A stretch of DNA of 64,000 nt from Bacteroidota bacterium (GTDB taxonomy: Bacteria; Bacteroidota; Bacteroidia; Chitinophagales; Chitinophagaceae): assembly GCA_947448725.1 (NCBI GenBank), contig CANFOM010000012.1:6622-70621 (forward strand), written 5' to 3'. Made by a program: the position numbers and the translations under genes. Below the pieces are notes generated by a model. That model was not told the DNA's origin, did not search any database, and saw nothing but the letters and a program-made list of their open reading frames with translations. Below, piece by piece: positions 20,755 through 62,025 of the stretch; the first letter of the stretch is position 1; each line of letters opens with the position of its first letter.

Positions 20755-21954
20755 TTAATTGAATTTTAAAGTGTGGTGTCCGAATTGTATTTTATCAGAA
20801 AGGTATTGTTGATTTTGTTCGGTGGAGGTAACAGCCACTTGTAAAACATCAAAATTAAAATTTGCTTTTTTGAGCGCCTTTACTTTTTCAGGGTTATTGC
20901 TCACTAAACTAAAATTGTTTATGCCAGAAGCCTTTAACATCCAAATAGCATCAAAATAATTTCTGTTATCCTTAGGCAAGCCTAATTTTTCATTGGCTTC
21001 ATAGGTATTATGCCCTTGTTCTTGTAATGAGTAGGCAGCAATTTTATTGCCAATACCAATACCTCTTCCTTCATGTCCTCTTAAATAAACGATATAGCCA
21101 TGCCCATTTTTTGCAATCAAGGCCAAGGAGTTATGCAATTGTTGTTGACAATCGCATCTTAAACTTCCAAAAACATCTCCTGTTAAACATTCGCTGTGAA
21201 TTCTAACAATAGGTTTGTTTTGACTGGTGCGCATTGCAATTAATACCTGTTCTTTGCCTGTTAAATAATTTTCGAAAACTTCAATATCAAAATTGCCAAA
21301 TGAAGTGGGCAATGAGGATTTTGAAACAAAAAGCAAATGATTTTCTGTTTGATTTCGATAATCAATTATTTGCTGTATAGTAATTACTTTAAGTTCTAAT
21401 TTTTCAGCAAATTTAAAAAGGCCCTCTCTCCTCATCATATTACCTTCTTCATCCATTACTTCACAAATTATGGCAGCCGGTTCATGCCCAGTTAACTTAC
21501 ACAAATCCACTGCAGCTTCGGTATGGCCTTGTCTGGCCAATACTCCATTTACCTTTGATACCACTGGAAATAAATGTCCCGGTTTTATAAAATCATTCGG
21601 ATGGCTATTGGGATTTGCAATTTGAGCAGCGCTAATAGCGCGTTCTTTTGCTGAGATACCTGTGGTAATACCAAATGCAGCACTAGCATCAATGGAATCA
21701 TAGAAGGCAGTATGAAAAGGATCCAATTGATTCGATGGTACTGGAGATAAATTTAATCGATTGGCAATTTTAGCGTCAATAGCAATACATACCAATCCTT
21801 TAGCATTCGTTGCACAAAGATTTATTTTTTCTTGGGTGGCCGCATCGGCAGGAAAAACGATATCCCCTTCGTTTTCTCTAGACTCATCATCCACTACTAA
21901 AATTGGATTCCCATTTTTAAATGCCAATAAAGCATCCTCAATTGTATTAAACAT
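20755..21954 (-). CDS. ribBA: Bifunctional 3,4-dihydroxy-2-butanone-4-phosphate synthase / GTP cyclohydrolase II
   Basis: 399-aa ORF. The RibB part has DDESRENEGD and HTEAAVDL. The RibA part has RIHSECLTGDVFGSLRCDCQQQL and LRGHEGRGIGIGNK. Confidence 0.9.
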   Translation of the reverse strand: MFNTIEDALLAFKNGNPILVVDDESRENEGDIVFPADAATQEKINLCATNAKGLVCIAIDAKIANRLNLSPVPSNQLDPFHTAFYDSIDASAAFGITTGISAKERAISAAQIANPNSHPNDFIKPGHLFPVVSKVNGVLARQGHTEAAVDLCKLTGHEPAAIICEVMDEEGNMMRREGLFKFAEKLELKVITIQQIIDYRNQTENHLLFVSKSSLPTSFGNFDIEVFENYLTGKEQVLIAMRTSQNKPIVRIHSECLTGDVFGSLRCDCQQQLHNSLALIAKNGHGYIVYLRGHEGRGIGIGNKIAAYSLQEQGHNTYEANEKLGLPKDNRNYFDAIWMLKASGINNFSLVSNNPEKVKALKKANFNFDVLQVAVTSTEQNQQYLSDKIQFGHHTLKFN

Positions 21955-51295: not shown

Positions 51296-53620
51296 TTAAA
51301 ATTTAAAATTATAGGTAATGCTTGGCACCCATCTAAATAAAGCTGTTTGGATAATCTGAGTTTTTGAATTATCTAAAGGATCATCTTGGAAGGATATTCT
51401 ATAAGCATTTTCTCTTCCATAAACATTATACAAGCTAAAGTTCCAAGAACTTTCTTGTTTTTTTCTATTTGTATTTTCATAGGTCACACTTAAATCAAGT
51501 CTATGGTAGGTTGGCATCCTGTTAGCGTTTCGGTTGGCATATTGGTAAATAGTTTGCCCTCCCAATGAATATTTACCAGTTGGGAAAGTAACGGCATTAC
51601 CAGTATTGTATACAAATACACCGGAAACAGACCATTTCGAATTAAGTTCTACAATTGTAACAATTGATATATCATGCGTTCGATCTTGCTTTGCATTATA
51701 CCAGTTACCCCCATTAATCCCCTCAATCTTTCTTTCTGTTTTAGATAAAGTATAGCTAATCCATCCAGAAAGTATCCCAATTTTCTTTTTTGCTAATAAT
51801 TCAAAACCATACGCACGTCCAATTCCATATAATAATGCACTTTCCACATCTGCAATAGTGTTAATATTGGTTCCATCTTTATAATCTAATTGGTTTTGCA
51901 TTGCCTTATAATATAGCTCTGCACCAAGCTCATAGGTGTTATTTTTAAAATTCCTAGTATAGCCTATACTAGTTTGATCCGCTAATTCAGGTTTAATATT
52001 ATAGGAGTCTCCTATCCATTGGTCCGATGGATTCGAAGCTGTGGCATTGCTTAGTAAATGTAAATGCTGAACATTACGAGCATAGGCTACTTTTAAACTA
52101 CTAAAATTATTGATCCTGTAATTACTGGTAATTCTTGGCTCGAGATTAAGATATGTTTTGCCGAATGCGCTTTTATCTAGTAAAATAGAAGATGTTTTTT
52201 CATTGCCATTATACAAATTATACACATCGCCACCCATAATTGAATAAGCAGATACTCTGAAGCCATAATCAAATGTCAGTTGCTGATTGACTCTAAAATT
52301 ATTATTAAGATAGATGGCATTCTCCAACCCATTTCTCCCTATTTTATTTATATTATTAATGACAGTACCGCTAAATATGCTTGGTGTGATAGTATGTAAA
52401 ATAGAATTAAAACCAAAACGAATTGTATTTTTTGGATTTAAGTAATAGGTATAGTCTTGCTTAATATTAGCGTCTATTATGTTTGAATTAACATTGAAGT
52501 TAGTCTCACCATTTTTTAAACCTACATTATAACTGTAGTCACTATAAATAAAGGAGGTATTTAAGAATAACTTACTATTAATAACTCTATTCCATCTTAT
52601 TGTTCCAGTTTTGTTGCCCCAATTAATTCTAAAACTACTACCTAATCCTAATTCATCTTTACCAAAATAACCGGAGAAATAAACTCTGTTTTTATCGTTT
52701 AGTATATAATTTGCTTTGGCATTAAAATCATAAAAGTATAATATATTATCTTTGAACTTGTCAGTTGCCTTTAAAAAAACATCAGCATAGGTTCTTCTTC
52801 CCGATAAAATAAAAGAAGATTTATCTTCTTGAATAGGACCTTCTATACTTAATCTGCTACTAATTAAACCAAGACCACCGTTAACGGTATAATTTTTATT
52901 ATTCCCTTCTTTCATCTTTACATCTAATACCGAAGATAACCTGCCACCATATTGAGCGGGTCCATTACCTTTAATTAAGGTGGCATCTTTTATCGCGTCA
53001 CTATTGAACGTACTAAAAAAGCCCAATAAATGAGAGGCATTATACACCGGTGCTTCATCAAGTAATATTAAATTTTGATCGGCTGACCCGCCCCTAACAA
53101 AAAAACCACTATTGCCTTCGCCAGCAGATTTCACACCAGGAAGTAACTGGATAGTTTTTAAAACATCTTTTTCGCCAAATATAACGGGCACTTTACTAAT
53201 GGACTTCATATTGAGTGTTTCCGTTCCCATCTGTGCCTTAACTAAATTATCATCTTTTCGTTTGGACTCTACAACAACTTCTGCTAATTGATTCTTGCTT
53301 TCTAAAAAAATAGGAATAGACAATGGATCATTTAATGAAATAGGAATTCTTTTTTCTTCATACCCAACAAAACTAATTCTTAAATCATATTTACCCTTGG
53401 GCAATGAAATTGCAAAAAATCCATATTCATTTGAGGTTATAACAACATTGGCTAGCTGATCAATTTTTATTACAGCTCCATTGATAGACTCCCCGCTGAG
53501 TTTGTCTTTTACAGTTCCGTTTACAGTAGTTTTTTCTTGCGCCTGAATTTGAAATGTAGATCCTATGATACATAAAATGAGGAGTACAATATATTTTCTA
53601 TTAATTAATAGCATTTGCAA
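51296..53620 (-). CDS. TonB-dependent receptor with an N-terminal carboxypeptidase-regulatory-like domain (non-SusC type)
   Basis: 774-aa ORF. Signal peptide, VNGTVKDKLSGESINGAVI, plug, barrel, and C-terminal ..ITYNFKF. Confidence 0.9.
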   Translation of the reverse strand: MQMLLINRKYIVLLILCIIGSTFQIQAQEKTTVNGTVKDKLSGESINGAVIKIDQLANVVITSNEYGFFAISLPKGKYDLRISFVGYEEKRIPISLNDPLSIPIFLESKNQLAEVVVESKRKDDNLVKAQMGTETLNMKSISKVPVIFGEKDVLKTIQLLPGVKSAGEGNSGFFVRGGSADQNLILLDEAPVYNASHLLGFFSTFNSDAIKDATLIKGNGPAQYGGRLSSVLDVKMKEGNNKNYTVNGGLGLISSRLSIEGPIQEDKSSFILSGRRTYADVFLKATDKFKDNILYFYDFNAKANYILNDKNRVYFSGYFGKDELGLGSSFRINWGNKTGTIRWNRVINSKLFLNTSFIYSDYSYNVGLKNGETNFNVNSNIIDANIKQDYTYYLNPKNTIRFGFNSILHTITPSIFSGTVINNINKIGRNGLENAIYLNNNFRVNQQLTFDYGFRVSAYSIMGGDVYNLYNGNEKTSSILLDKSAFGKTYLNLEPRITSNYRINNFSSLKVAYARNVQHLHLLSNATASNPSDQWIGDSYNIKPELADQTSIGYTRNFKNNTYELGAELYYKAMQNQLDYKDGTNINTIADVESALLYGIGRAYGFELLAKKKIGILSGWISYTLSKTERKIEGINGGNWYNAKQDRTHDISIVTIVELNSKWSVSGVFVYNTGNAVTFPTGKYSLGGQTIYQYANRNANRMPTYHRLDLSVTYENTNRKKQESSWNFSLYNVYGRENAYRISFQDDPLDNSKTQIIQTALFRWVPSITYNFKF

Positions 53621-53644
53621 AAATATAACTTTATTAACTTCCTA

Positions 53645-54355
53645 TTATTTAAAATATTCCATAATCTCATCGGCTATTAAATGATGGCCATTTTCATTGG
53701 GATGATTTACCTGAGACATAAAGTTGACTAAATCAAACCCTGCCTTTGTATTATTTTTAAAGAGTGAGTAAGTATCAACTAGCCCCACTTTGTACAATTT
53801 TGATAATTGTATGATTTGAGCTGCATGTTGGTCAAGAATGGTGTGGTCATCCTTGATATCAACTGTTTGGTCTGGACTGGGGGTTAATAGGATTACTTTT
53901 ATATTTTTATCCAAAGCAGCATGAATCATTTTTTCCCATGCATTTTTTGCGCGCGCTAAGCCAATCCCTCTGTCATTTAAGGCATAATCAATAAATACAA
54001 CATCAGGATGATGAATGAGTACCTCAGACTCAAATCTTTTTTCACCGCTTTCTGAATTTTCACCTCCAATGGAGGTATTGATAATATTCACTACCGTAAA
54101 TGGATATTGTGATTTTATTTGTTGTAAAACAAAATATGGATAGGAAGCGAGTGTATTAACTATTGGTGTTTTAAAATAACCCGCAGGAACTGAATGGCCA
54201 TGAAATACCAAATTGATGGTTCTATTTTTTGGCCATTCTTGCTTCATTTCGGCTTTAATTTTTTCTAAATAAAATACTTTGGGAGTAAGATCTTGACTTT
54301 TAAGCAATGTGCTTGAAAGTAAAATAAATACGACTAGTAAATTTTTTAGGTTCAT
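53645..54355 (-). CDS. SGNH-fold hydrolase (variant motifs)
   Basis: 236-aa ORF with a signal peptide. Block I reads HGHSV (GHS instead of GDS), block III is ALND, and block V is NHPNENGH without the usual DxxH Asp. Confidence 0.65.
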   Translation of the reverse strand: MNLKNLLVVFILLSSTLLKSQDLTPKVFYLEKIKAEMKQEWPKNRTINLVFHGHSVPAGYFKTPIVNTLASYPYFVLQQIKSQYPFTVVNIINTSIGGENSESGEKRFESEVLIHHPDVVFIDYALNDRGIGLARAKNAWEKMIHAALDKNIKVILLTPSPDQTVDIKDDHTILDQHAAQIIQLSKLYKVGLVDTYSLFKNNTKAGFDLVNFMSQVNHPNENGHHLIADEIMEYFK

Positions 54356-54492
54356 TCTTATAGGTTTAAAATGTGGTGTATTTTAAAATTAAGCTTTCTA
54401 TTGCATATAATTCTTTTAATCTGAATCATCTTCCAAAATTCACTTTAAAAATTTTAGATCACTAAACTACCAGTTACAACACAAACCAAAGA

Positions 54493-55404
54493 TCAATCTG
54501 GTTTTAATTTAATCTTGGTAAATATTTGTAAATGTGGTAGTGCTAGTACAGATAAGCTTATAAATAAAAGTGTAAAAATTCCAGAAGCATCATTACTATT
54601 GAGTGTTAGAAAAGTAATATATATAAATCCAAACCAAGCCATAATTGAAAATGGAGCAGCTTTTATAAGTAAACGCTTCCATCCATTGAAATCATTGGGC
54701 ATACTAAAAGTGATCCTTATTTTATCAAATGATAATAAAGAATGCCAAAAGCCAAAATAAAATGCAAAACAAAGCCAAAGAGGCATAAAAAATGCAAAAA
54801 TGATTAGCGTAAGCTGTTGTATAATGGAATAGTAATAATATTTGTTTTTTGAAAATAACTGTTCTTTAAAAAAGAATAAAATAAAATAAATAACAAATAG
54901 ACCAACTAATGTTAAGGGATAAATTTTTTGAGCAAGTGCAATCCATTGATTTTCATTAAAGGCAGAACGCTCCATTCTAATAAAAATTTGTAAGGCGAAA
55001 TTGATGTTCTTAGAAAGCAATAATAAAATCCATAATAGCCCAATTGTAGAATAAGCAATTTTATGAATAACTTTTTCTGTTTTGCCTAACCAATCAATTT
55101 CTCCAAAATGATAAGCAGTAATAAGTATAAAGATGATTAAAGCGGCAATGGGGAAAAAATACCAAACTAAAGCATACGCAATTATATTACCAATATATTT
55201 TAGAAGAAATATTTTTTGATTGCTTTCTGATTTATGTAAATATTGATCAATGTATAAATCTAAAGCCCCATGAGGAACTCCAAAAAGAATTAATACGACA
55301 ATTAAGAATGAAATTTGAGTGCTGTTATTTAAGGAAAAAACACTATCAATCAGAAATAAAATAAATGCAAATAATATTAAGTAGAGGCGAAGTTTGATTT
55401 GCAT
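54493..55404 (-). CDS. blh: Brp/Blh family beta-carotene 15,15'-dioxygenase (retinal synthesis)
   Basis: 303-aa polytopic membrane ORF. Conserved His set in GVPHGALD, AYHFGE, FWHS and ALPH. Lies directly downstream of the rhodopsin gene. Confidence 0.85.
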   Translation of the reverse strand: MQIKLRLYLILFAFILFLIDSVFSLNNSTQISFLIVVLILFGVPHGALDLYIDQYLHKSESNQKIFLLKYIGNIIAYALVWYFFPIAALIIFILITAYHFGEIDWLGKTEKVIHKIAYSTIGLLWILLLLSKNINFALQIFIRMERSAFNENQWIALAQKIYPLTLVGLFVIYFILFFFKEQLFSKNKYYYYSIIQQLTLIIFAFFMPLWLCFAFYFGFWHSLLSFDKIRITFSMPNDFNGWKRLLIKAAPFSIMAWFGFIYITFLTLNSNDASGIFTLLFISLSVLALPHLQIFTKIKLKPD

Positions 55405-55417
55405 GTATGTAAATTAC

Positions 55418-55448
55418 AAAAAAAAGGGGCAAGTAACCAACTTGCCCC
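55418..55448 (-). terminator. Rho-independent terminator between the rhodopsin and blh genes
   Basis: On the (-) strand: stem GGGGCAAGT, 5-nt loop, stem ACTTGCCCC, then U8. It begins 20 nt after the rhodopsin stop and ends 13 nt before the blh ATG. Confidence 0.8.
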
Positions 55449-55467
55449 ATTAAGTAATTATAATAAA

Positions 55468-56193
55468 TTAAGCAGCTTTTCTACTTAAGCTATAAATAAC
55501 CAAACCAAAACCGATTTTATTGACAGCATCTCCAATATTGTAAATAACGTTCATGTCAATTCCAATATTTTTGAAGCTAGCATACCATTGACCATCGGCT
55601 GTGCCAATTAAATATCCTAAAGGATAAATAGCCCAACCCACTAAAACGAACCATCCTAGTGCCGCATTAGCAGATGCTACTGCTGTGCCTGCTCCAGTGG
55701 CTAATTTCTTAACATCTCCCATCCAAACTTCATATACGATATAGAAGTAAGCGATAGCACTTAAAGTTCCCCATAATGTTGCTTGAGCTGGGGCGACAGC
55801 CTCTCCCCAATATCCTGTTACTAACATTACTACAGAAGCTAAAATCATTTTCCATAATAAACCTGTAGTACCGCCTGCTTTTTTTGTGATCAAATAAAAT
55901 TCAACACACATTAAAGGAACAGTCAATAACCAGTCTACATAACGGAAAAATGTAGGACTATCATGCGTCTCTAAATAGTAACCACGCATGTAGTAATAGT
56001 GAACAGCAGCAATAAAAGTGATTAACCCTGATACCAATACCGAGGTTCTCCATTCTTTACTAGTGTTGTTCAATTCTAAAAAGAAAAATACTGCCGCGGC
56101 CATCATGGCCATTGTGCCAACGAAGAAAGTGAAAGACACATAATCGGTCTTCGCAATCGCCATTGAAGCATCAAGAAGGAACAAATGATCCAT
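55468..56193 (-). CDS. Proteorhodopsin (light-driven H+ pump, DTE motif, green-type)
   Basis: 241-aa, 7-TM ORF. RYVDWLLTVPLMCVEFY gives D87/T91/E98, equivalent to D97/T101/E108 of the SAR86 GPR. M95 sits at the L/Q105 spectral-tuning site. His65 is in VHYYYMRG. The Schiff-base Lys226 is in IGDAVNKIGFG, with D222 as counter-ion. Confidence 0.95.
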   Translation of the reverse strand: MDHLFLLDASMAIAKTDYVSFTFFVGTMAMMAAAVFFFLELNNTSKEWRTSVLVSGLITFIAAVHYYYMRGYYLETHDSPTFFRYVDWLLTVPLMCVEFYLITKKAGGTTGLLWKMILASVVMLVTGYWGEAVAPAQATLWGTLSAIAYFYIVYEVWMGDVKKLATGAGTAVASANAALGWFVLVGWAIYPLGYLIGTADGQWYASFKNIGIDMNVIYNIGDAVNKIGFGLVIYSLSRKAA

Positions 56194-56730
56194 ATTGTTG
56201 AGTTTTGGTGAACGTAATTATTCACAACACTCCACAGTTCATTACGGCTGTCATTTATATATATTTCAATACATAAAAATGCAAAGCGATAGCAAAACAA
56301 TCGTTGTTTTTAAATCAAACAAAAGTTAAAAATAAAAATTAGAAAAAATGTTAAAAAATAGTAAAAATCTGAAATTTATTTTTATTTGTTTAAGCTAATG
56401 TCTAGAGATTATTTTCAATTCTTAAACAAAATTGTTGTCGCAAATTGCATACTAAAAAATTGATTGTATTATTAATGGCAATATTACACATGTAAGACCA
56501 ATTTGTAAAGATTTCAATAAACTCATAAAGTCCCACAAAGCAAAAATATGGTAATTTGCAAAACGTTTTATACCTCAAAGTTATTTATTTGGTTGTAAAC
56601 AGAATGTGATGATAAAGCGGCTCAAGTTGGTTGAATACTTAATTATAAACGTTCAATAGGTGTTTGTATCTTAATGGATTTTAATAAAACAATTTGCTAT
56701 AAATTTGTTTCCGTGGCAAAAAGGAAAATA

Positions 56731-56762: not shown

Positions 56763-57353
56763 ATGACAATAAGTTTTCCAAATATCATAAATCAGGATGG
56801 GCAAGCACATTATTTTGGGATAATTATAAATGCTGAAGAAAATCGAAAATATTTTGATGAACTTCTCCACAAGATTGAATGGGTGAATGAAAATTTAATC
56901 ATGTTTGGTAAAGAAATAACAACCAAAAGAAAAGTAGCATTTTACGCAGATAGCAGGATTGATTATACCTATTCCAATAAAACAAAGAAAGGATTGGAAT
57001 GGACCCCCACGCTGATGGAAATAAAGCAAAAAGTTAGCGCTTATACTGGTTGCAATTACAATGCGTGCCTAATGAATCTGTATCATGATGGAAATGAAGG
57101 AATGGGTTGGCATTGTGATGACGAAAAGGAAATTATTCCCAATAGTTCTATTGCTTCTTTAAGTTTTGGGGCAGAAAGAAAATTTGCTTTAAAACACAAA
57201 GTAAGTAAGGAATCCCATTCTATTATACTTCAGAATGGGTCTTTATTAGAAATGTTGGGGAGTTTTCAAAAAAATTGGGTACACTCCTTACCTAAATCAA
57301 AAAAAATTACCAACTCAAGAATTAATCTAACTTTTAGACAAATGATTTCATGA
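56763..57353 (+). CDS. AlkB-like Fe(II)/2-oxoglutarate dioxygenase
   Basis: 196-aa ORF. HxD in GWHCDDE, a distal His in NWVHSLP, and the 2OG-binding RINLTFRQ (compare E. coli AlkB RYNLTFRQ). Confidence 0.85.
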   Translation: MTISFPNIINQDGQAHYFGIIINAEENRKYFDELLHKIEWVNENLIMFGKEITTKRKVAFYADSRIDYTYSNKTKKGLEWTPTLMEIKQKVSAYTGCNYNACLMNLYHDGNEGMGWHCDDEKEIIPNSSIASLSFGAERKFALKHKVSKESHSIILQNGSLLEMLGSFQKNWVHSLPKSKKITNSRINLTFRQMIS

Positions 57354-57505
57354 AAAATAGTCGACAACAAACTATAAAAAAGTCAAATCTCCCTTCCAAA
57401 AAATGCCTCCATTGCCAAAGACCATTTAATTGGAGAAAAAAATGGGAAAAGACTTGGGACGAAGTGAAGTATTGTAGCGAAGCTTGTAAAAAGAAAATAT
57501 ACTAG
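57350..57505 (+). CDS. DUF2256-type zinc-ribbon protein (51 aa); absent from the supplied ORF track
   Basis: ATG at 57350 overlaps the AlkB-like stop (ATGA). Translation: MKNSRQQTIKKSNLPSKKCLHCQRPFNWRKKWEKTWDEVKYCSEACKKKIY. The CxxC..CxxxC and F.WRKKW..W(D/E)EVKYCSE.C pattern matches my memory of DUF2256. Confidence 0.8.
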   Translation: MKNSRQQTIKKSNLPSKKCLHCQRPFNWRKKWEKTWDEVKYCSEACKKKIY

Positions 57506-57517
57506 CAATAATTTACC

Positions 57518-57787
57518 TTACCGCTTACTAATCTTATTCATGGTTATGGCTTTTTGTCTAGCACATTTAAAACGTTTTATAGCTGCGTTTCGTTTTATCA
57601 AATGCTTTTGACTCACCCCACTATTTAATCTCTTACGCCAAAGATTAAAACTATTACGTTTTAATTGGGTGCGCATCAATTTAATGGTAGCCGATTCTGA
57701 TAAACCAAACTGGATGGTGATTGCCTCAAAAGGAGTGCGGTCTTCCCATGCCATTTCAATAATTCTGTCAATGTCTATTATTTCCAT
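57518..57787 (-). CDS. TIGR03643 / DUF2805 family protein
   Basis: 89-aa ORF. DRIIEMAWEDRTPFEAITIQFGLSE..IKLMR..LK..SF.LWRKR is the family signature as I recall it. Confidence 0.85.
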   Translation of the reverse strand: MEIIDIDRIIEMAWEDRTPFEAITIQFGLSESATIKLMRTQLKRNSFNLWRKRLNSGVSQKHLIKRNAAIKRFKCARQKAITMNKISKR

Positions 57788-57821
57788 AGAATTTAAATTT
57801 TTACTACGCCCAACATTTTTT

Positions 57822-58523
57822 TTAAGAAGTCTTGATAGTACTCATGCCGCCATCTAAGTGTAAAATTTGTCCTGTCATCCAAGAGGATTTAGCAGACAAT
57901 AAAAATTCAATCATAGATGCAATATCTTGAACAGTACCTACTCTTTTTAGGGGATGTCTAAGGGCATTGGCTTCCATTTTTTGGTCGGTATTTAATAAAC
58001 TGGCTGCCAAGGGCGTATTGGTTAATCCTGGGGCTATGCAATTCACACGTATGGTAGGTGCAAATTCTGCAGCCAATGATTTAGTCAATCCTTCAATAGC
58101 TCCTTTTGAAACTGCTACTTGTGTATGAAAATTTAAGCCTGTTTGAACTGCCACTGTAGAAAATAAGACAATGGCGGGATTAGTCCCCTTTTTCAATTGA
58201 ACCAAAATAGATTGTATGCATTTAATCGCGCCCAATACTTGTAAATTAAAATCTGCACTAAAATCGGATGGGGAAATTCTGCCAAAAGGACGAAGCTGAA
58301 TCGCTCCAGGACAATACACTATGCCATCTATAGTTTCTGGTAAAAAAGAGAAGTCTAAGGATTCCTCTAATACATTTAATGGATGATAACTAATAAGATT
58401 GTTATCAGACACTGTTGGGTGGGTATGATAAGTGGCATATACCCTATTCCCTAATTGAGCCAAATGATTGACCGCTTCTAGGCCCATTCCAGAAGATCCG
58501 CCAATGATAATATAATTAGACAT
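57822..58523 (-). CDS. Divergent short-chain dehydrogenase/reductase lacking the canonical catalytic Tyr
   Basis: 233-aa ORF. Cofactor loop IIGGSSGMG. The region aligned to YxxxK reads VAVSK, and CPGAI replaces NNAG. The C-terminal IRVNCIAPGLTNTP is SDR-typical. Confidence 0.75.
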   Translation of the reverse strand: MSNYIIIGGSSGMGLEAVNHLAQLGNRVYATYHTHPTVSDNNLISYHPLNVLEESLDFSFLPETIDGIVYCPGAIQLRPFGRISPSDFSADFNLQVLGAIKCIQSILVQLKKGTNPAIVLFSTVAVQTGLNFHTQVAVSKGAIEGLTKSLAAEFAPTIRVNCIAPGLTNTPLAASLLNTDQKMEANALRHPLKRVGTVQDIASMIEFLLSAKSSWMTGQILHLDGGMSTIKTS

Positions 58524-58730
58524 ACTTTTTGTTTTATATGAACATTATAACATAAAAAACATAAAAAGGTTGTCTTAAAGAAAAGTAGTTTATAAAGGTT
58601 ATGGTTTGTGAAATAGGATGATGAAAGGGAATCATTTTAAAAAAAGAAAACAAAGAATTAAAAAGCTTAAACAAAAACTAATATATCCTGAAAATGCGAA
58701 TACCTTTAGTGTCTAAAAATATATATTGAA

Positions 58731-59468
58731 ATGACGTTTATAGTGCTATTTTTCTTGATACATTGGTTCATGTCTTTGTTTTTTCATACTTTTTTTCTTC
58801 ACCGATTTGCTTCTCATAAAATGTATGAAACTAGTAAAAATTGGGAACGTGTTTTTTATATTGGCACTTGGTTTTTTCAAGGTTCCTCCTATTTGGTTCC
58901 AAGAGCTTATGGAGTAATGCATAGAATGCACCATGTTTATAGTGATACAGAAAAAGATCCTCATTCCCCTCATTTTTTTAAAGATGTATTTGAGATGATG
59001 AAAAGCACTGTTGTGATCTACAGATCGTTTTTAGCGAATAACGACCTTCCAGAAAAAGAATTCACGAAAGATTATCTGCCTGTTTGGGAAAAATTAGACA
59101 AATTCGGACATCATATTATAACCAGAATAGTTTTTGCGATTTTTTATGTATCCATTTATTATTTTTTCGCTCCAAACCTTTGGTGGTACCTTTTACTACC
59201 TATTCATTTTTTAATGGGCCCCATTCAAGGTGCGATTGTAAACTGGTGCGGCCATAAATATGGTTATAGAAATTTTGAAAGTATTGATAAAAGTAAAAAT
59301 ACAGGCCCATGGGGCTTTTTATTACTTGGAGAACTATTCCAAAACAATCATCACCATGCAAAAAATGATGCCAATTTTGCAAAAAAATGGTTTGAAATTG
59401 ATCTTACCTATCAAATAATGCGTTTATTTAACTTTGTTGGAATCATTCAATTCAACAAAATAAATTAA
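58731..59468 (+). CDS. Membrane fatty-acid (acyl-CoA/acyl-lipid) desaturase
   Basis: 245-aa ORF. Three His boxes: HRFASH, HRMHH and NNHHH. Confidence 0.85.
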   Translation: MTFIVLFFLIHWFMSLFFHTFFLHRFASHKMYETSKNWERVFYIGTWFFQGSSYLVPRAYGVMHRMHHVYSDTEKDPHSPHFFKDVFEMMKSTVVIYRSFLANNDLPEKEFTKDYLPVWEKLDKFGHHIITRIVFAIFYVSIYYFFAPNLWWYLLLPIHFLMGPIQGAIVNWCGHKYGYRNFESIDKSKNTGPWGFLLLGELFQNNHHHAKNDANFAKKWFEIDLTYQIMRLFNFVGIIQFNKIN

Positions 59469-59858
59469 ATGACTATCGTATTATTTGATGGGGTTTGCAA
59501 TTTGTGTAATTCAACTGTATTATTTTTAATACAACATGATGGCAAGAATAATTTACACTTTGCTGCCCAACAAACTGATGCAGGAAAAAATATAATGCAG
59601 CAACATGCTATTTTAGCTGAAAATAAATCAGTTATCTTAATAAAAAACGAACTTGTATTTTATAAATCTGATGCAGTTATTGAAATTGCAAAACTACTAA
59701 CTGGTTGGCCACGTATTTTGAAATACACTAAACTTGTGCCAAAATTTTTAAGAGATGGGATTTATAACTTAATTGCAAAAAATAGATACTCCATATTTGG
59801 AATAAGAACAACCTGTATGACGCCTTCCAATAGCAACAGGGAAAGGTTCATTATGTAA
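59469..59858 (+). CDS. DCC-family thiol-disulfide oxidoreductase (DUF393)
   Basis: 129-aa ORF. N-terminal LFDGVCNLCN motif. The start codon directly abuts the desaturase stop codon. Confidence 0.8.
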   Translation: MTIVLFDGVCNLCNSTVLFLIQHDGKNNLHFAAQQTDAGKNIMQQHAILAENKSVILIKNELVFYKSDAVIEIAKLLTGWPRILKYTKLVPKFLRDGIYNLIAKNRYSIFGIRTTCMTPSNSNRERFIM

Positions 59859-60023: not shown

Positions 60024-61709
60024 CTATTTTGATGCAGCTTTCTGGTATGTTACTATTGGAACATACCCTACTTCCATACCCTTTGGAGGCGTAACCAATA
60101 AAGCCGGATCAAGTGCTACCAATTCACCCATGGTAGGTGGAGCCATATAATCTCTATCAATAGGCCACTCTGCATGAACCTTTTCAATGAAAGCCTGTAA
60201 TTTATCTTTTTTGGCTTTGCTCCAGTTGTATTGTTGAAAGGATGGTTGATCTACAAAACGATACCAGGAATAAGTAACTTCAGAGCCGTCAATTAGCTTA
60301 ACTATATAAGGGCCTGCAGCAGCACCCGGATTTGTCCAGGCTCCTTTGCCTGGTGAAGTATAGGGCTCGCCCGATTTTGCCAATGTAAATTCTTTGTTCA
60401 GGAGATTTGTTGTGGCAGGCACCTCTGATACAGCTATTGCCACCAATTGATCTCCTTCATGCCTGAAGTATCTTGGAAAATTTCCAAATTTATCGGTTTT
60501 ACTATCCACCCATTTTAATCCCCAAACATTGTCGTTGTATACTTTTGTATCAAAGATTTTTTCTACTCCAGTTATTTTTTTACCATCCTGATCGTAACCA
60601 GGAGTTCGAGTTGTTAAGTTTGATTTCCACGCACCCTTTTCATCAAATCTTCCTGAGCAAGGATCACCACCATCTCTCCATACCTTAAAAGTTTCATACA
60701 ATGCTGCTTTAGAGTAATAAACTACATCTTGAACTAGCATGGTCCTACCCTGTTTGTCAACTGGAAATTGCAGTTGAGGTATTTTTGAATAGGTCACACC
60801 CTTTTCATCCTGTGACTCAAAACAAGGTACAGTGTTAATCTCCATGGCTCCTCCTCCCATATGTCCTGGTCTAGCATCAAGTCCACGTCCATAAATAAAA
60901 TCATAATTGAATAGCTTGCCAATTTTACTCCAAGTTTCAGGAATATAATAAGCTATCGGTCCTTTGAAATTGGCAGCGCTTAAAAAACAAGTCCAGCTTT
61001 GATCTCCCGTTGGTGGGTCATCATTTGTTGGGTCTGTAAAAGGTAAAGCCATGTATGTATACCCCAGAAATTTACCATTTGGATTGTCCTGGAAAGGCAA
61101 GGCATCTGGTGGAATTAGCAGACGATTGCTCAATTGAGCAATTCCCAAACGATTGTCAGGCAAAGCTTCAGTATCATAAAAAAATGACCAACCCGGCGAA
61201 CCAATTTCGTAATCATAACATTGTGGTGTTGCATTCATACTAAATTTTGGCGGACCATATCTAAATCTATTTCCGGCCCAATAACCAAGGCCACCTTCGA
61301 GGGTTTGAAAAACACTGCTCCATGTAGGGCCTCGGCTTGGCCAGTTGTCACGGGCAAGCGTACCAATGGGTGCAAGGGGTTTGTCTTTATTATCGGAATT
61401 GTCGGGAGTAACCCATGCTCCTGCCAAACCAATCTGAAAGTCCGCAATTGGTTGGGTAATCAATGGCCATACAGCAGAATAAAAACCCATTCCGTAACTG
61501 AAGTCAGATTGATCCGCTGGTCTGTCCGCATTATAGCTGATGTACCCATGCAGACCGTTGGTATGTTCTTTTATAATTCCAGGTCCTTTTTTTTGTGCTT
61601 TATCATCCTGTGCCTCAACCTGTTGGTAAGAAACTAGCATAAAAAAAGCAATAAAAGACAATTGAAAACACAAAGCCTTATATCTGCCATAAAAGAATTT
61701 ACATTTCAT
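60024..61709 (-). CDS. Orphan secreted protein; no family recognised
   Basis: Long ORF (571 aa from 61739). I prefer the Met at 61709 because it opens a signal-peptide-like MKCKFFYGRYKALCFQLSFIAFFMLVSYQQVEAQ. Its GC content is visibly above that of its neighbours. Confidence 0.6.
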   Translation of the reverse strand: MKCKFFYGRYKALCFQLSFIAFFMLVSYQQVEAQDDKAQKKGPGIIKEHTNGLHGYISYNADRPADQSDFSYGMGFYSAVWPLITQPIADFQIGLAGAWVTPDNSDNKDKPLAPIGTLARDNWPSRGPTWSSVFQTLEGGLGYWAGNRFRYGPPKFSMNATPQCYDYEIGSPGWSFFYDTEALPDNRLGIAQLSNRLLIPPDALPFQDNPNGKFLGYTYMALPFTDPTNDDPPTGDQSWTCFLSAANFKGPIAYYIPETWSKIGKLFNYDFIYGRGLDARPGHMGGGAMEINTVPCFESQDEKGVTYSKIPQLQFPVDKQGRTMLVQDVVYYSKAALYETFKVWRDGGDPCSGRFDEKGAWKSNLTTRTPGYDQDGKKITGVEKIFDTKVYNDNVWGLKWVDSKTDKFGNFPRYFRHEGDQLVAIAVSEVPATTNLLNKEFTLAKSGEPYTSPGKGAWTNPGAAAGPYIVKLIDGSEVTYSWYRFVDQPSFQQYNWSKAKKDKLQAFIEKVHAEWPIDRDYMAPPTMGELVALDPALLVTPPKGMEVGYVPIVTYQKAASK

Positions 61710-62025
61710 AACTTGATTTTTAAACAATGATGATATCATTAATACACAATAATTCCAACTTAGATTTTAATGATGCAAACACTCTACTAATATATACATT
61801 ATTCTATCAATTTTATGCAAAGGATGTAAAACTTAAATGTGAACTTCCTATTCCCGAAGGGAGATAACATAACAAGCTTAGTTAATAGTAGTATGGACGT
61901 AAAGAATAATAAAATAAATAAAGTATACAATATTTACGATCCTAAAACTCTTTTAGTAACTTTAGCTAAACAATAAAAGTAATAGGGATTCAATCATTTA
62001 AAAAATTTTATCTAAAATAATTTAC

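What the first reader, a model, noticed from the sequence alone, without database searches (positions are those of the whole stretch)
56763..59858. Photolyase/cryptochrome companion genes are present next to the rhodopsin, but no photolyase is
Seen in sequence: AlkB-like 2OG oxygenase + DUF2256 (plus strand) converge on TIGR03643/DUF2805 + an atypical SDR (minus strand). These are followed by a divergent fatty-acid desaturase + DCC/DUF393 pair.

Established knowledge (from memory of TIGRFAM/Pfam context notes and flavobacterial genomes): TIGR03643, DUF2256, an SDR and a 2OG oxygenase typically flank cryptochrome-DASH or photolyase genes, and they are light-induced in PR-containing flavobacteria.

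Inference: here the set is detached from any photolyase and joined to the PR-blh unit. This suggests that these small proteins form a light-response or photodamage module in their own right. For example, it could combine oxidative nucleic-acid repair by AlkB, a zinc-ribbon/HTH-like pair as regulator or adaptor, and membrane remodelling by the desaturase. None of DUF2256, TIGR03643 or this SDR clade has an assigned function.
Basis: partly seen in the sequence, partly recalled or inferred. Interest (0 to 1): 0.65.

Follow-up and report, generated by a model that had tools for sequence, protein, structure and literature searches.

The report
Photolyase-companion genes stranded beside proteorhodopsin
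Next to the rhodopsin of a freshwater Bacteroidota genome sit the small helper genes that normally ride in photolyase operons, joined here to an AlkB-type DNA-repair enzyme instead; this is a lineage-specific leftover of a known light-damage gene island, useful mainly as a lead to what these unstudied helpers do.

Summary
All eight ORFs exist at the stated coordinates and match the named families above curated cut-offs. No photolyase gene or relic lies anywhere in the 64 kb window.

- Across 80 Bacteroidota species, DUF2805/TIGR03643 lies within 5 kb of a photolyase-family gene in 31 of 40 fully flanked loci.
- DUF2805 usually sits directly upstream of a NewPHL-like photolyase. DUF2256 usually sits directly upstream of an FeS-BCP (6-4) photolyase.
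- The SDR belongs to a clade that always lacks the catalytic Tyr.
- The window comes from a freshwater Chitinophagaceae-like clade, not a marine flavobacterium. In this clade the island also carries an ALKBH2-like dioxygenase overlapping DUF2256, a DUF3050 gene, a desaturase-DCC pair and often PR-blh.
- Some relatives (L113, L171) still hold the photolyases in the island. The window and about eight other lineages have lost them from it, and DUF3050 is a relic here.
- The remaining genes are under strong purifying selection.
- Likely counterparts in Dokdonia MED134 belong to its core light-induced gene set.

Whether this genome keeps photolyases elsewhere could not be settled. This is a new variant of a known neighbourhood, of moderate interest.

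The parts
54493..55404 (-). blh, beta-carotene 15,15'-dioxygenase that makes retinal; downstream of PR
   Evidence: PF15461 at 125 bits and TIGR03753 at 140 bits. 85-97% identical in clade relatives.
55468..56193 (-). Proteorhodopsin with a D87/T91/E98 proton-pump motif, M95 at the spectral-tuning site and Schiff-base Lys K226
   Evidence: PF01036 at 137 bits; motif positions. Word depth is 100-700 in two freshwater metatranscriptomes.
56470..56669 (-). Relic of a DUF3050 (PF11251, haem-oxygenase-like) gene. Codons 2-33 carry two stops, a frameshift follows, then codons 34-68; the remaining ~190 codons are deleted.
   Evidence: tblastn with the intact DUF3050 of L087 and with those of L007, L008 and L010. 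An intact copy sits between 2OG and PR in L007, L010, L087, L093, L113 and L171.
56688..56709 (.). Palindrome AACAA-N12-TTGTT overlapping a TAAATTTG (-7-like) box upstream of the 2OG gene; a candidate operator
   Evidence: Conserved as an inverted repeat in the divergent DUF3050/2OG promoter of L087, L088, L113, L171 and L010. Only 3 matches in the window against 1.7 expected, and none before SDR or the desaturase.
56763..57353 (+). ALKBH2-like Fe(II)/2-oxoglutarate dioxygenase, a direct-reversal base-repair enzyme
   Evidence: PF13532 at 111 bits. Human ALKBH2 (3s57) matches at E=1.4e-31 over residues 12-195. H117-x-D119, H174 and R186-INLTF-R192 are present. A transcript contig with 1 mismatch in 219 nt was found.
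57350..57505 (+). DUF2256: basic four-Cys zinc-ribbon protein (C19, C22, C42, C46) with an invariant WRKKW motif; its start overlaps the 2OG stop by 4 nt
   Evidence: PF10013 at 74 bits. Alignment A3. 15 K/R against 4 D/E. Pfam places it in the TRASH clan (PMC4047054).
57518..57787 (-). DUF2805/TIGR03643: small helical protein with an HTH-like core (residues 6-56) and a basic tail (14 K/R, 0 D/E in residues 50-89)
   Evidence: dN/dS is 0.03-0.08 against photolyase-less relatives in the comparisons with unsaturated synonymous sites.
57822..58523 (-). SDR of a clade lacking the catalytic Tyr (V136); S122, K140 and the GGSSGMG motif are kept. It lies upstream of DUF2805 on the same strand, 34 nt away.
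   Evidence: all 24 DUF2805-linked SDRs have V or I at the Tyr site and a conserved FH[TAS][QSL] motif. Residue positions. L088's copy is 69% identical and also Tyr-less.
58731..59468 (+). Short SCD-type (delta-9-like) membrane fatty-acid desaturase with His boxes HRFASH (24), HRMHH (64) and NNHHH (205)
   Evidence: PF00487 at 46.8 bits. Weak match to mouse SCD1 (4ymk, E=0.0011) with the His boxes aligned. His-box positions. Transcript contigs found.
59469..59858 (+). DCC1-like thiol-disulfide oxidoreductase (C10-NL-C13), immediately after the desaturase
   Evidence: PF04134 at 89.7 bits; CxxC position. The DES-DCC pair recurs in L007, L008, L092, L099 and L172, and DCC alone in L093 and L113.

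Best explanation
The region is a lineage-specific, photolyase-less version of a gene island that is built around photolyases across Bacteroidota.

The usual layout is (Tyr-less SDR)-(DUF2071)-DUF2805 -> NewPHL-like photolyase -> flavin reductase -> DUF2256 -> FeS-BCP (6-4) photolyase. In the freshwater Chitinophagaceae-like clade of the window, the island also holds:
- an ALKBH2-like dioxygenase translationally coupled to DUF2256;
- a DUF3050 haem-oxygenase-like gene;
- a desaturase-DCC pair;
- in many members, PR-blh.

Some relatives keep the photolyases inside the island. In the window's lineage they have been lost from it or moved, and DUF3050 has decayed to a relic. The rest stayed intact and constrained.

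Most likely function (inferred): a sunlight-damage tolerance set.
- AlkB-type oxidative reversal of alkyl or etheno base lesions. The homology and catalytic residues are shown; the substrate is inferred.
- DUF2256 is a small zinc-ribbon partner of direct-reversal repair enzymes: FeS-BCP elsewhere, AlkB here (inferred).
- DUF2805 is a small HTH-like DNA-binding partner or regulator that normally accompanies the ssDNA-specific NewPHL (inferred).
- The Tyr-less SDR is an NAD(P)-binding protein of non-canonical chemistry (inferred).
- The desaturase and DCC adjust membrane lipids (inferred).

By analogy with Dokdonia MED134, the set is probably light-induced together with PR. Whether it works without any photolyase in this genome is open.
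For: - Family assignments.
- No photolyase or relic in 64 kb.
- Photolyase within 5 kb of DUF2805 in 31 of 40 fully flanked species loci.
- DUF2805 lies directly upstream of a NewPHL-like gene in 24 loci. DUF2256 lies directly upstream of FeS-BCP in 14 loci and of a class I/DASH photolyase in 8.
- Islands that still contain photolyases plus PR-blh plus 2OG-DUF2256 plus DUF2805: L113 and L171.
- An independent lineage, L162, has PR and a CrtY-Blh fusion converging on an FeS-BCP-photolyase-DUF2805-2OG operon.
- Decay signs: a DUF3050 relic in the window and an FeS-BCP truncated to 177 aa in L098.
- The same module occurs without PR or photolyase in L088/L089.
- ALKBH2 match with the full catalytic set.
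- Tyr-less SDR clade.
- Purifying selection on all companions.
- Transcripts of 2OG, SDR and DES detected in situ.
- The Dokdonia MED134 core light stimulon contains three photolyase-family genes, an SDR beside a photolyase, ABC1 and adjacent hypothetical proteins.
Against: - There are no light, UV or alkylation expression data for this organism.
- No operator shared by the transcription units was found.
- The PR link is confined mainly to one PR clade.
- Fold and profile searches for DUF2805 and DUF2256 gave no significant match.
- None of the best 150 DUF2805 representatives is a fusion.
- DUF2256, DUF2805 and blh had essentially no metatranscriptome coverage.
- The identity of the MED134 'hypothetical proteins' as TIGR03643 or DUF2256 was not checked by sequence.
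- The genome may hold photolyases elsewhere. In that case the local absence says little about function.
Confidence: 0.6

Rival explanations
1. Pure relocation. The genome still encodes NewPHL and FeS-BCP photolyases at another locus. DUF2805, DUF2256 and the SDR act only as their accessories in trans. Their position beside AlkB and PR is rearrangement debris with no functional meaning of its own.
For: MAGs from the same study carry FeS-BCP plus a flavin reductase at unrelated loci near TatC. The island is reshuffled in almost every species.
Against: The 2OG-DUF2256 4-nt overlap and the convergent DUF2805 are kept over 60-93% 2OG identity while everything around them is shuffled. An AlkB-like gene also sits in a photolyase-DUF2805 operon in a distant lineage (L162).
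Confidence: 0.3
2. Coincidental neighbours. PR-blh inserted into, or was retained beside, a variable region. PR, the AlkB pair, the DUF2805-SDR pair and the desaturase-DCC pair have no shared function or regulation.
For: Only 1 of 31 distant PR loci carries the module. No shared operator was found. PR transcript depth is more than 50 times that of its neighbours. PR has lower synonymous divergence than its flanks (pS 0.31-0.39 against 0.5-0.7), which is compatible with separate exchange of PR.
Against: PR-blh next to photolyase or companion genes recurs in separate lineages: L018 and L020; L103, L113, L162 and L166; L171; L172. In MED134, PR and the photolyase-companion genes are co-induced by light.
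Confidence: 0.15
3. DUF2805 (HTH-like) and DUF2256 (zinc ribbon) form a transcription-factor and partner pair that controls the light regulon, including PR. They are not repair accessories.
For: The top fold-search hits of DUF2805 are HTH DNA-binding domains, and it has a basic tail. DUF2805 is usually the first gene of the operon. In L171 it lies directly upstream of PR on the same strand. A conserved palindrome lies in the 2OG/DUF3050 promoter.
Against: The fold matches are not significant (E>=2.9). Conservation of 70-90% identity across a phylum is unusual for a dedicated regulator. DUF2256 is positioned like a translationally coupled enzyme subunit. No light-sensing domain is present.
Confidence: 0.1

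Closest known systems
Light-induced photolyase/cryptochrome clusters of marine flavobacteria (Dokdonia MED134: MED134_10201-10226, MED134_14266-14276, MED134_03404-03409)
   Same: The gene families match: photolyase-family genes with a short-chain dehydrogenase, an ABC1 protein and small hypothetical proteins. In MED134 all are in the core light-induced set together with PR (10.1101/2023.12.25.573297, Table S2). The same families surround DUF2805 in 80 Bacteroidota loci.
   Different: The window has no photolyase in 64 kb. It carries an AlkB-like enzyme, a DUF3050 relic and a desaturase-DCC pair. It comes from a freshwater Chitinophagaceae-like lineage. The MED134 hypothetical proteins were not matched by sequence here.
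Human ALKBH2 / E. coli AlkB (Fe(II)/2OG direct-reversal DNA demethylases)
   Same: The core is full length, with E=1.4e-31 to ALKBH2. The HxD...H iron triad and the RxNLTFR 2OG-binding motif are kept.
   Different: It scores far below the NCBIfam AlkB equivalog cut-offs (28 against 267 bits). It is translationally coupled to a DUF2256 zinc ribbon, which is not known for AlkB or ALKBH2. The substrate is untested.
NewPHL photolyases (Emmerich et al. 2020, PMC7736829)
   Same: The ~365-aa gene that usually follows DUF2805 has the FAD_binding_7 catalytic domain at its N-terminus and no N-terminal antenna domain. That is the inverted topology described for NewPHL.
   Different: It is absent from the window. 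Membership of these Bacteroidota proteins in NewPHL rests on domain topology only. The paper says nothing about gene context.
YacG/DUF329 and other TRASH-clan mini zinc fingers
   Same: DUF2256 is placed in the same Pfam clan (PMC4047054). It is a ~50-aa CxxC...CxxxC protein. From my own knowledge, YacG works by binding an enzyme, DNA gyrase. That is a model for DUF2256 as an enzyme partner.
   Different: There is no detectable sequence or significant fold match to any solved structure. The invariant WRKKW motif is specific to DUF2256.
Classical SDRs (FabG-like)
   Same: Rossmann fold, GGSSGMG dinucleotide motif, and the catalytic Ser and Lys are kept.
   Different: The catalytic Tyr is replaced by V or I in all 24 members linked to DUF2805, and a conserved His lies three residues upstream. 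The enzyme cannot use the canonical Tyr-based mechanism.

Membership tests
AlkB family (PF13532, Fe(II)/2OG dioxygenase) | Pfam model above the gathering score | tested here: met
   111.1 bits against a cut-off of 31.2
AlkB family (PF13532, Fe(II)/2OG dioxygenase) | HxD...H iron triad and the RxNxTxR 2OG-binding motif | tested here: met
   H117, D119, H174 and R186-INLTF-R192, aligned with ALKBH2
AlkB equivalog (E. coli type; NF011930, TIGR00568) | Score above the curated equivalog cut-off | tested here: not met
   27.8 against 267 bits and 25.5 against 231 bits. It is an ALKBH2/3-like branch, not the E. coli AlkB orthologue.
AlkB family | Oxidative dealkylation of 1-meA, 3-meC or etheno lesions in DNA or RNA | not testable with these tools
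   Needs an enzyme assay
DUF2256 (PF10013) | Pfam model above cut-off; four conserved Cys | tested here: met
   73.8 against 25 bits. C19, C22, C42 and C46 and the WRKKW motif are invariant in 34 sequences.
TIGR03643 / DUF2805 (PF10985) | Both models above cut-off | tested here: met
   106.2 against 66.55 bits and 109.8 against 22.5 bits
Helix-turn-helix DNA-binding proteins (as the fold of DUF2805) | Significant structural match to a known HTH domain | tested here: inconclusive
   The model has mean pLDDT 72. The best Foldseek E-value is 2.9. The hits are mostly HTH domains with 35-41 aligned columns at rmsd 1.5-3.2. The profile search against PDB found nothing.
Classical SDR | Catalytic Ser-Tyr-Lys | tested here: not met
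   Tyr is replaced by V136; S122 and K140 are present. The same holds in 24 of 24 clade members.
Fatty-acid desaturase (PF00487), SCD/delta-9 type | Pfam model above cut-off and three His boxes | tested here: met
   46.8 against 29.7 bits. HRFASH, HRMHH and NNHHH align with mouse SCD1. It is below the NCBIfam DesA cut-off (112 against 400 bits).
DCC1-like thiol-disulfide oxidoreductase (PF04134) | Pfam model above cut-off and an N-terminal CxxC | tested here: met
   89.7 against 27.8 bits; C10-NL-C13
Bacteroidota photolyase-companion operon | A photolyase-family gene adjacent to DUF2805 or DUF2256 | tested here: not met
   No photolyase in 64 kb. It is adjacent in 33 of 80 DUF2805 loci and 29 of 44 DUF2256 loci elsewhere.
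Bacteroidota photolyase-companion operon | Tyr-less SDR upstream of DUF2805 on the same strand; DUF2256 in the same cluster | tested here: met
   SDR lies 34 nt upstream of DUF2805, and DUF2256 lies 12 nt away, convergent
Light-induced regulon | Higher expression in light than in dark | not testable with these tools
   Only two metatranscriptomes without light metadata were available. The indirect support comes from MED134.

The most novel reading that the evidence does not exclude
DUF2256 and DUF2805 are general small accessory subunits of direct-reversal DNA-repair enzymes. They would act as lesion- or DNA-targeting adaptors. DUF2256 pairs with FeS-BCP (6-4) photolyase in most Bacteroidota and has switched partner to an ALKBH2-like dioxygenase in this freshwater clade. 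The set therefore remains functional in genomes that have lost photolyases.
Probability: 0.2. Interest if true: 0.7.

Novelty: new variant of a known kind. Interest (0 to 1): 0.42.

Why it matters
DUF2256, TIGR03643/DUF2805 and the Tyr-less SDR are widespread. DUF2805 alone has 1,527 clusters at 50% identity. DUF2805 is 70-90% identical across the phylum in the loci sampled here. No paper held in the library assigns any of them a function.

This work gives concrete, testable pairings: DUF2805 with NewPHL-like photolyase, and DUF2256 with FeS-BCP photolyase or with AlkB. It also identifies a natural clade in which the helpers persist under selection without an adjacent photolyase.

That turns a vague observation that these genes are found near photolyases into defined interaction and phenotype experiments on how bacteria in sunlit water handle DNA damage.

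If the genome simply keeps photolyases elsewhere, the locus is an ordinary rearranged island.

Tried and rejected
1. Shared operator. A k-mer enrichment over 50 upstream regions of DUF2805 operons gave only AT-rich, promoter-like words. The clade-conserved palindrome AACAA-N12-TTGTT in the 2OG promoter has 3 matches in the window against 1.7 expected, and none before SDR or the desaturase.

2. Structure.
- The DUF2805 model (mean pLDDT 72) and the single-sequence DUF2256 model (mean pLDDT 68) gave no significant Foldseek match.
- Sequence and profile searches against PDB were also empty.

3. Rosetta-stone fusions. The best 150 of 1,527 DUF2805 representatives are all 59-178 aa.

4. Locating a photolyase of the window's own species.
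- I queried with the closest intact FeS-BCP (L113) and looked up eight of its nearest clusters.
- None came from the four MAG accessions that carry the window sequence, so the question stays open.

5. Expression.
- The two later calls show presence of transcripts only.

6. Literature.
- No paper on the function of DUF2256, TIGR03643 or DUF2805 was found.
- Kimura et al. 2011 is not held.
- The NewPHL paper has no gene-context data.
- The marine-DUF correlation paper gives no useful lead for DUF2805.

7. A second DUF2805 in L113 (7148-7417) was considered. It turned out to be the second half of a split flavin-reductase gene.

Full report
**1. The observation**

- Blh: 54493-55404 (-).
- PR: 55468-56193 (-).
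- A 196-aa 2OG oxygenase: 56763-57353 (+).
- A 51-aa ORF: 57350-57505 (+).
- An 89-aa ORF: 57518-57787 (-).
- A 233-aa SDR: 57822-58523 (-).
- A 245-aa desaturase: 58731-59468 (+).
- A 129-aa DCC protein: 59469-59858 (+).

Pfam and NCBIfam place each above the curated cut-offs: PF13532, PF10013, PF10985 with TIGR03643, PF13561/PF00106, PF00487 and PF04134.

The 2OG stop and the DUF2256 start overlap (ATGA). DUF2256 and DUF2805 converge with 12 nt between their stops. SDR lies 34 nt upstream of DUF2805 on the same strand.

No photolyase is in the window. None of the ten ORFs of 390-530 aa is one. tblastn with 84 photolyase-family proteins of three classes finds nothing at E<=0.01.

**2. Where the window comes from**

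The exact DUF2805 protein is encoded on 21 contigs. They include four NCBI MAGs (GCA_947381085.1, GCA_947447445.1, GCA_947378195.1, GCA_947473075.1). Ten kb further downstream there is still no photolyase.

The nearest species are freshwater MAGs labelled Bacteroidetes, Sediminibacterium or Chitinophagaceae, with 84-88% identical DUF2805. This is not a marine flavobacterium.

**3. What normally surrounds these genes**

I clustered all ORFs of 80 species-level loci around DUF2805 and named the clusters with Pfam.
- A photolyase-family gene lies within 10 kb in 48 of 80 loci. It lies within 5 kb in 31 of the 40 loci with at least 5 kb on both sides.
- The usual operon is (SDR)-(DUF2071)-DUF2805 -> a ~365-aa protein with only an N-terminal FAD_binding_7 domain -> flavin reductase -> DUF2256 -> FeS-BCP (PF04244) and/or a class I/DASH photolyase.
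- The ~365-aa protein has the inverted topology described for NewPHL (PMC7736829).
- The pairings are specific. DUF2805 is directly upstream of the NewPHL-like gene in 24 loci.
- DUF2256 occurs in 44 of 80 loci. It is directly upstream of FeS-BCP in 14 and of a class I/DASH photolyase in 8, often with a 4-8 nt overlap.
- In Chryseobacterium-type loci the set is TetR-ABC1-DUF2256-PHR-PHR-DUF2805-SDR-MarR.

The 2OG oxygenase is found in only 4 of the 80 loci, all in the window's clade.

**4. The window's clade**

The closest relatives (L007-L010) have no photolyase next to DUF2805. They have 2OG->DUF2256 converging on or near DUF2805, and then PR.

Look-ups centred on the 2OG gene show a conserved core of DUF3050 | 2OG->DUF2256 | DUF2805.
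- L087 has PR-blh downstream of DUF3050.
- L088 and L089 have neither PR nor photolyase within 10 kb. They carry a 69% identical Tyr-less SDR next to DUF3050.

A scan of 80 metagenome loci centred on PR gave these results.
- All 6 loci with PR at least 94% identical and at least 3 kb of upstream sequence carry 2OG and DUF2256.
- Only 3 of 16 do so at 80-93% PR identity.
- Only 1 of 31 do so below 80%.

Two relatives still hold everything in one island.
- L113: SOUL-DUF2805 | DUF2256<-2OG | DUF3050->FeS-BCP->flavin reductase (split)->NewPHL-like | <-DCC | DUF2071->PR->Blh.
- L171: DUF2805->PR->Blh | <-DUF3050 | 2OG | <-SOUL | FeS-BCP->flavin reductase->NewPHL-like->DUF2071.

Other arrangements also link these genes.
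- L172 has Blh ... FeS-BCP converging on DCC<-DES<-SDR.
- A distant lineage, L162 (PR 67%, DUF2805 55%, 2OG 38% identical), has PR and a CrtY-Blh fusion converging on an FeS-BCP->photolyase->DUF2805->2OG operon.
- L020 has Blh-PR divergent from DUF2071-DUF2805-PHR-PHR, and L018 has a Blh-like gene at the head of the operon.

**5. Signs of decay**

The 569-bp PR-2OG spacer contains the first 68 codons of a DUF3050 gene, with two stops and a frameshift; the rest is deleted (window 56470-56669, minus strand).

In L098 the FeS-BCP gene is cut to its first 177 residues.

The island has therefore been eroding in this clade. The window represents a state in which the photolyases are gone from it.

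**6. The individual proteins**

*2OG enzyme.* It matches human ALKBH2 over its whole core (E=1.4e-31). It keeps H117/D119/H174 and RINLTFR. It is far below the cut-offs for the E. coli AlkB equivalog.

*SDR.* It keeps the glycine motif, Ser and Lys, but has Val at the catalytic Tyr site. All 24 SDRs linked to DUF2805 share this, along with a conserved His three residues upstream.

*DUF2256.* It is a basic CxxC...CxxxC protein with an invariant WRKKW motif. Pfam puts it in the TRASH clan (PMC4047054).

*DUF2805.* It models as four short helices plus a long basic tail. Foldseek finds no significant match, but the list is dominated by HTH DNA-binding domains.

*Structural relatives and fusions.* Neither small protein has a solved relative by sequence or profile. 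DUF2805 has 1,527 representative clusters, and none of the best 150 is a fusion.

*Desaturase and DCC.* The desaturase has the three His boxes of SCD-type enzymes. DCC has its CxxC motif.

**7. Selection and expression**

The comparisons below are against relatives that lack an adjacent photolyase. Synonymous sites are near saturation, and dN/dS could not be computed for the most divergent pairs.

| Gene | dN/dS |
|---|---|
| DUF2805 | 0.03-0.08 |
| DUF2256 | 0.05-0.23 |
| 2OG | 0.08-0.13 |
| SDR | 0.10 |

Two freshwater metatranscriptomes contain contigs for 2OG, SDR and the desaturase at depth 2-6. PR reaches depth 100-700. Blh, DUF2256 and DUF2805 are essentially uncovered. No light metadata are available for these runs.

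In Dokdonia MED134, 15 genes are induced by light at all temperatures. They include three photolyase-family genes, the short-chain dehydrogenase MED134_14271 next to a class I photolyase, an ABC1 protein, and the hypothetical proteins MED134_14276, 10216, 10221 and 03409 (bioRxiv 10.1101/2023.12.25.573297, Table S2). PR is induced in the temperature sheets I read (10 and 18 °C). These are the same families my neighbourhood analysis recovers. I did not verify by sequence that the hypothetical proteins are TIGR03643 or DUF2256.

**8. What remains open**

I could not reach the other contigs of the window's genome. Eight of the closest FeS-BCP clusters come from other assemblies. Several show FeS-BCP plus a flavin reductase at unrelated loci. 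A photolyase elsewhere in this genome is therefore quite possible.

No shared operator links the transcription units.

**9. Verdict**

These are true photolyase companions, and here they are detached from photolyase and joined to PR-blh. They persist under selection in a clade without an adjacent photolyase.

However, the arrangement is best read as an eroded, reshuffled version of a known light-damage island, not as proof of a self-standing module.

The most useful new leads are:
- the specific pairings DUF2805-NewPHL and DUF2256-FeS-BCP;
- the apparent partner switch of DUF2256 to an ALKBH2-like enzyme;
- the Tyr-less SDR clade.

Noticed in passing
window 56470-56669 (-): Pseudogene relic of a DUF3050 (PF11251, haem-oxygenase-like di-iron family) gene in the PR-2OG spacer. 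It has two in-frame stops, one frameshift and a missing 3' two-thirds. The gene is intact at this position in several relatives.
   Followed up: yes
window 55468-56193 versus L087, L092, L093, L009: PR is 96-98% identical across species whose flanking genes are 55-88% identical. Its synonymous divergence (pS 0.31-0.39) is lower than that of its neighbours (0.5-0.7). This fits either strong codon constraint in a highly expressed gene or more recent exchange of PR between lineages.
   Followed up: partly
window 57822-58523 and 24 related loci: Every SDR linked to DUF2805 has Val or Ile in place of the catalytic Tyr, and a conserved His three residues upstream. The clade cannot use the canonical SDR mechanism.
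   Followed up: yes
window 56688-56709: Inverted repeat AACAA-N12-TTGTT overlapping a TAAATTTG -7-like box before the 2OG gene. It is conserved as a palindrome in the divergent DUF3050/2OG promoter of relatives. A second match (N10 spacing) overlaps the PR start codon at 56180-56199.
   Followed up: partly
window 60024-61739 (-): A 571-aa ORF with no Pfam or NCBIfam match, conserved directly beside the island in all MAG copies of this locus.
   Followed up: no
L098 372-905: FeS-BCP photolyase gene truncated to its first 177 residues (PF04244 positions 2-174 of 224), about 3 kb from DUF2805. It is followed by a DUF1295 gene. This suggests photolyase decay in a close relative.
   Followed up: partly
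L162 4426-6489: A 687-aa fusion of lycopene cyclase (PF05834) and Blh (PF15461) directly downstream of PR, converging on a photolyase-DUF2805-2OG operon.
   Followed up: partly
L177 103-2032: A DMRL synthase (ribH-like, PF00885) gene lies directly upstream of an FeS-BCP gene. GTP cyclohydrolase II and flavin-reductase genes also recur in the DUF2805 clusters. This hints at supply of a lumazine or flavin antenna chromophore.
   Followed up: no
L088/L089 11059-11660, L113 1823-2680, L171 9261-9854: A SOUL haem-binding-family gene sits immediately upstream of, or close to, DUF2805 in several clade members that lack the SDR at that position.
   Followed up: no
window 53600-56300 in metatranscriptomes X1, X2: PR transcripts are abundant, but no contig covers blh just downstream. 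Retinal synthesis may be expressed far below the opsin, or the assemblies may have missed it.
   Followed up: no
window 1-50000: The rest of the window is a polysaccharide-utilisation landscape: SusD-like protein, sulfatase, GH30, rhamnosidase and TonB-dependent receptors. It also holds ribBA (20755-21954). Nothing there is related to light.
   Followed up: partly
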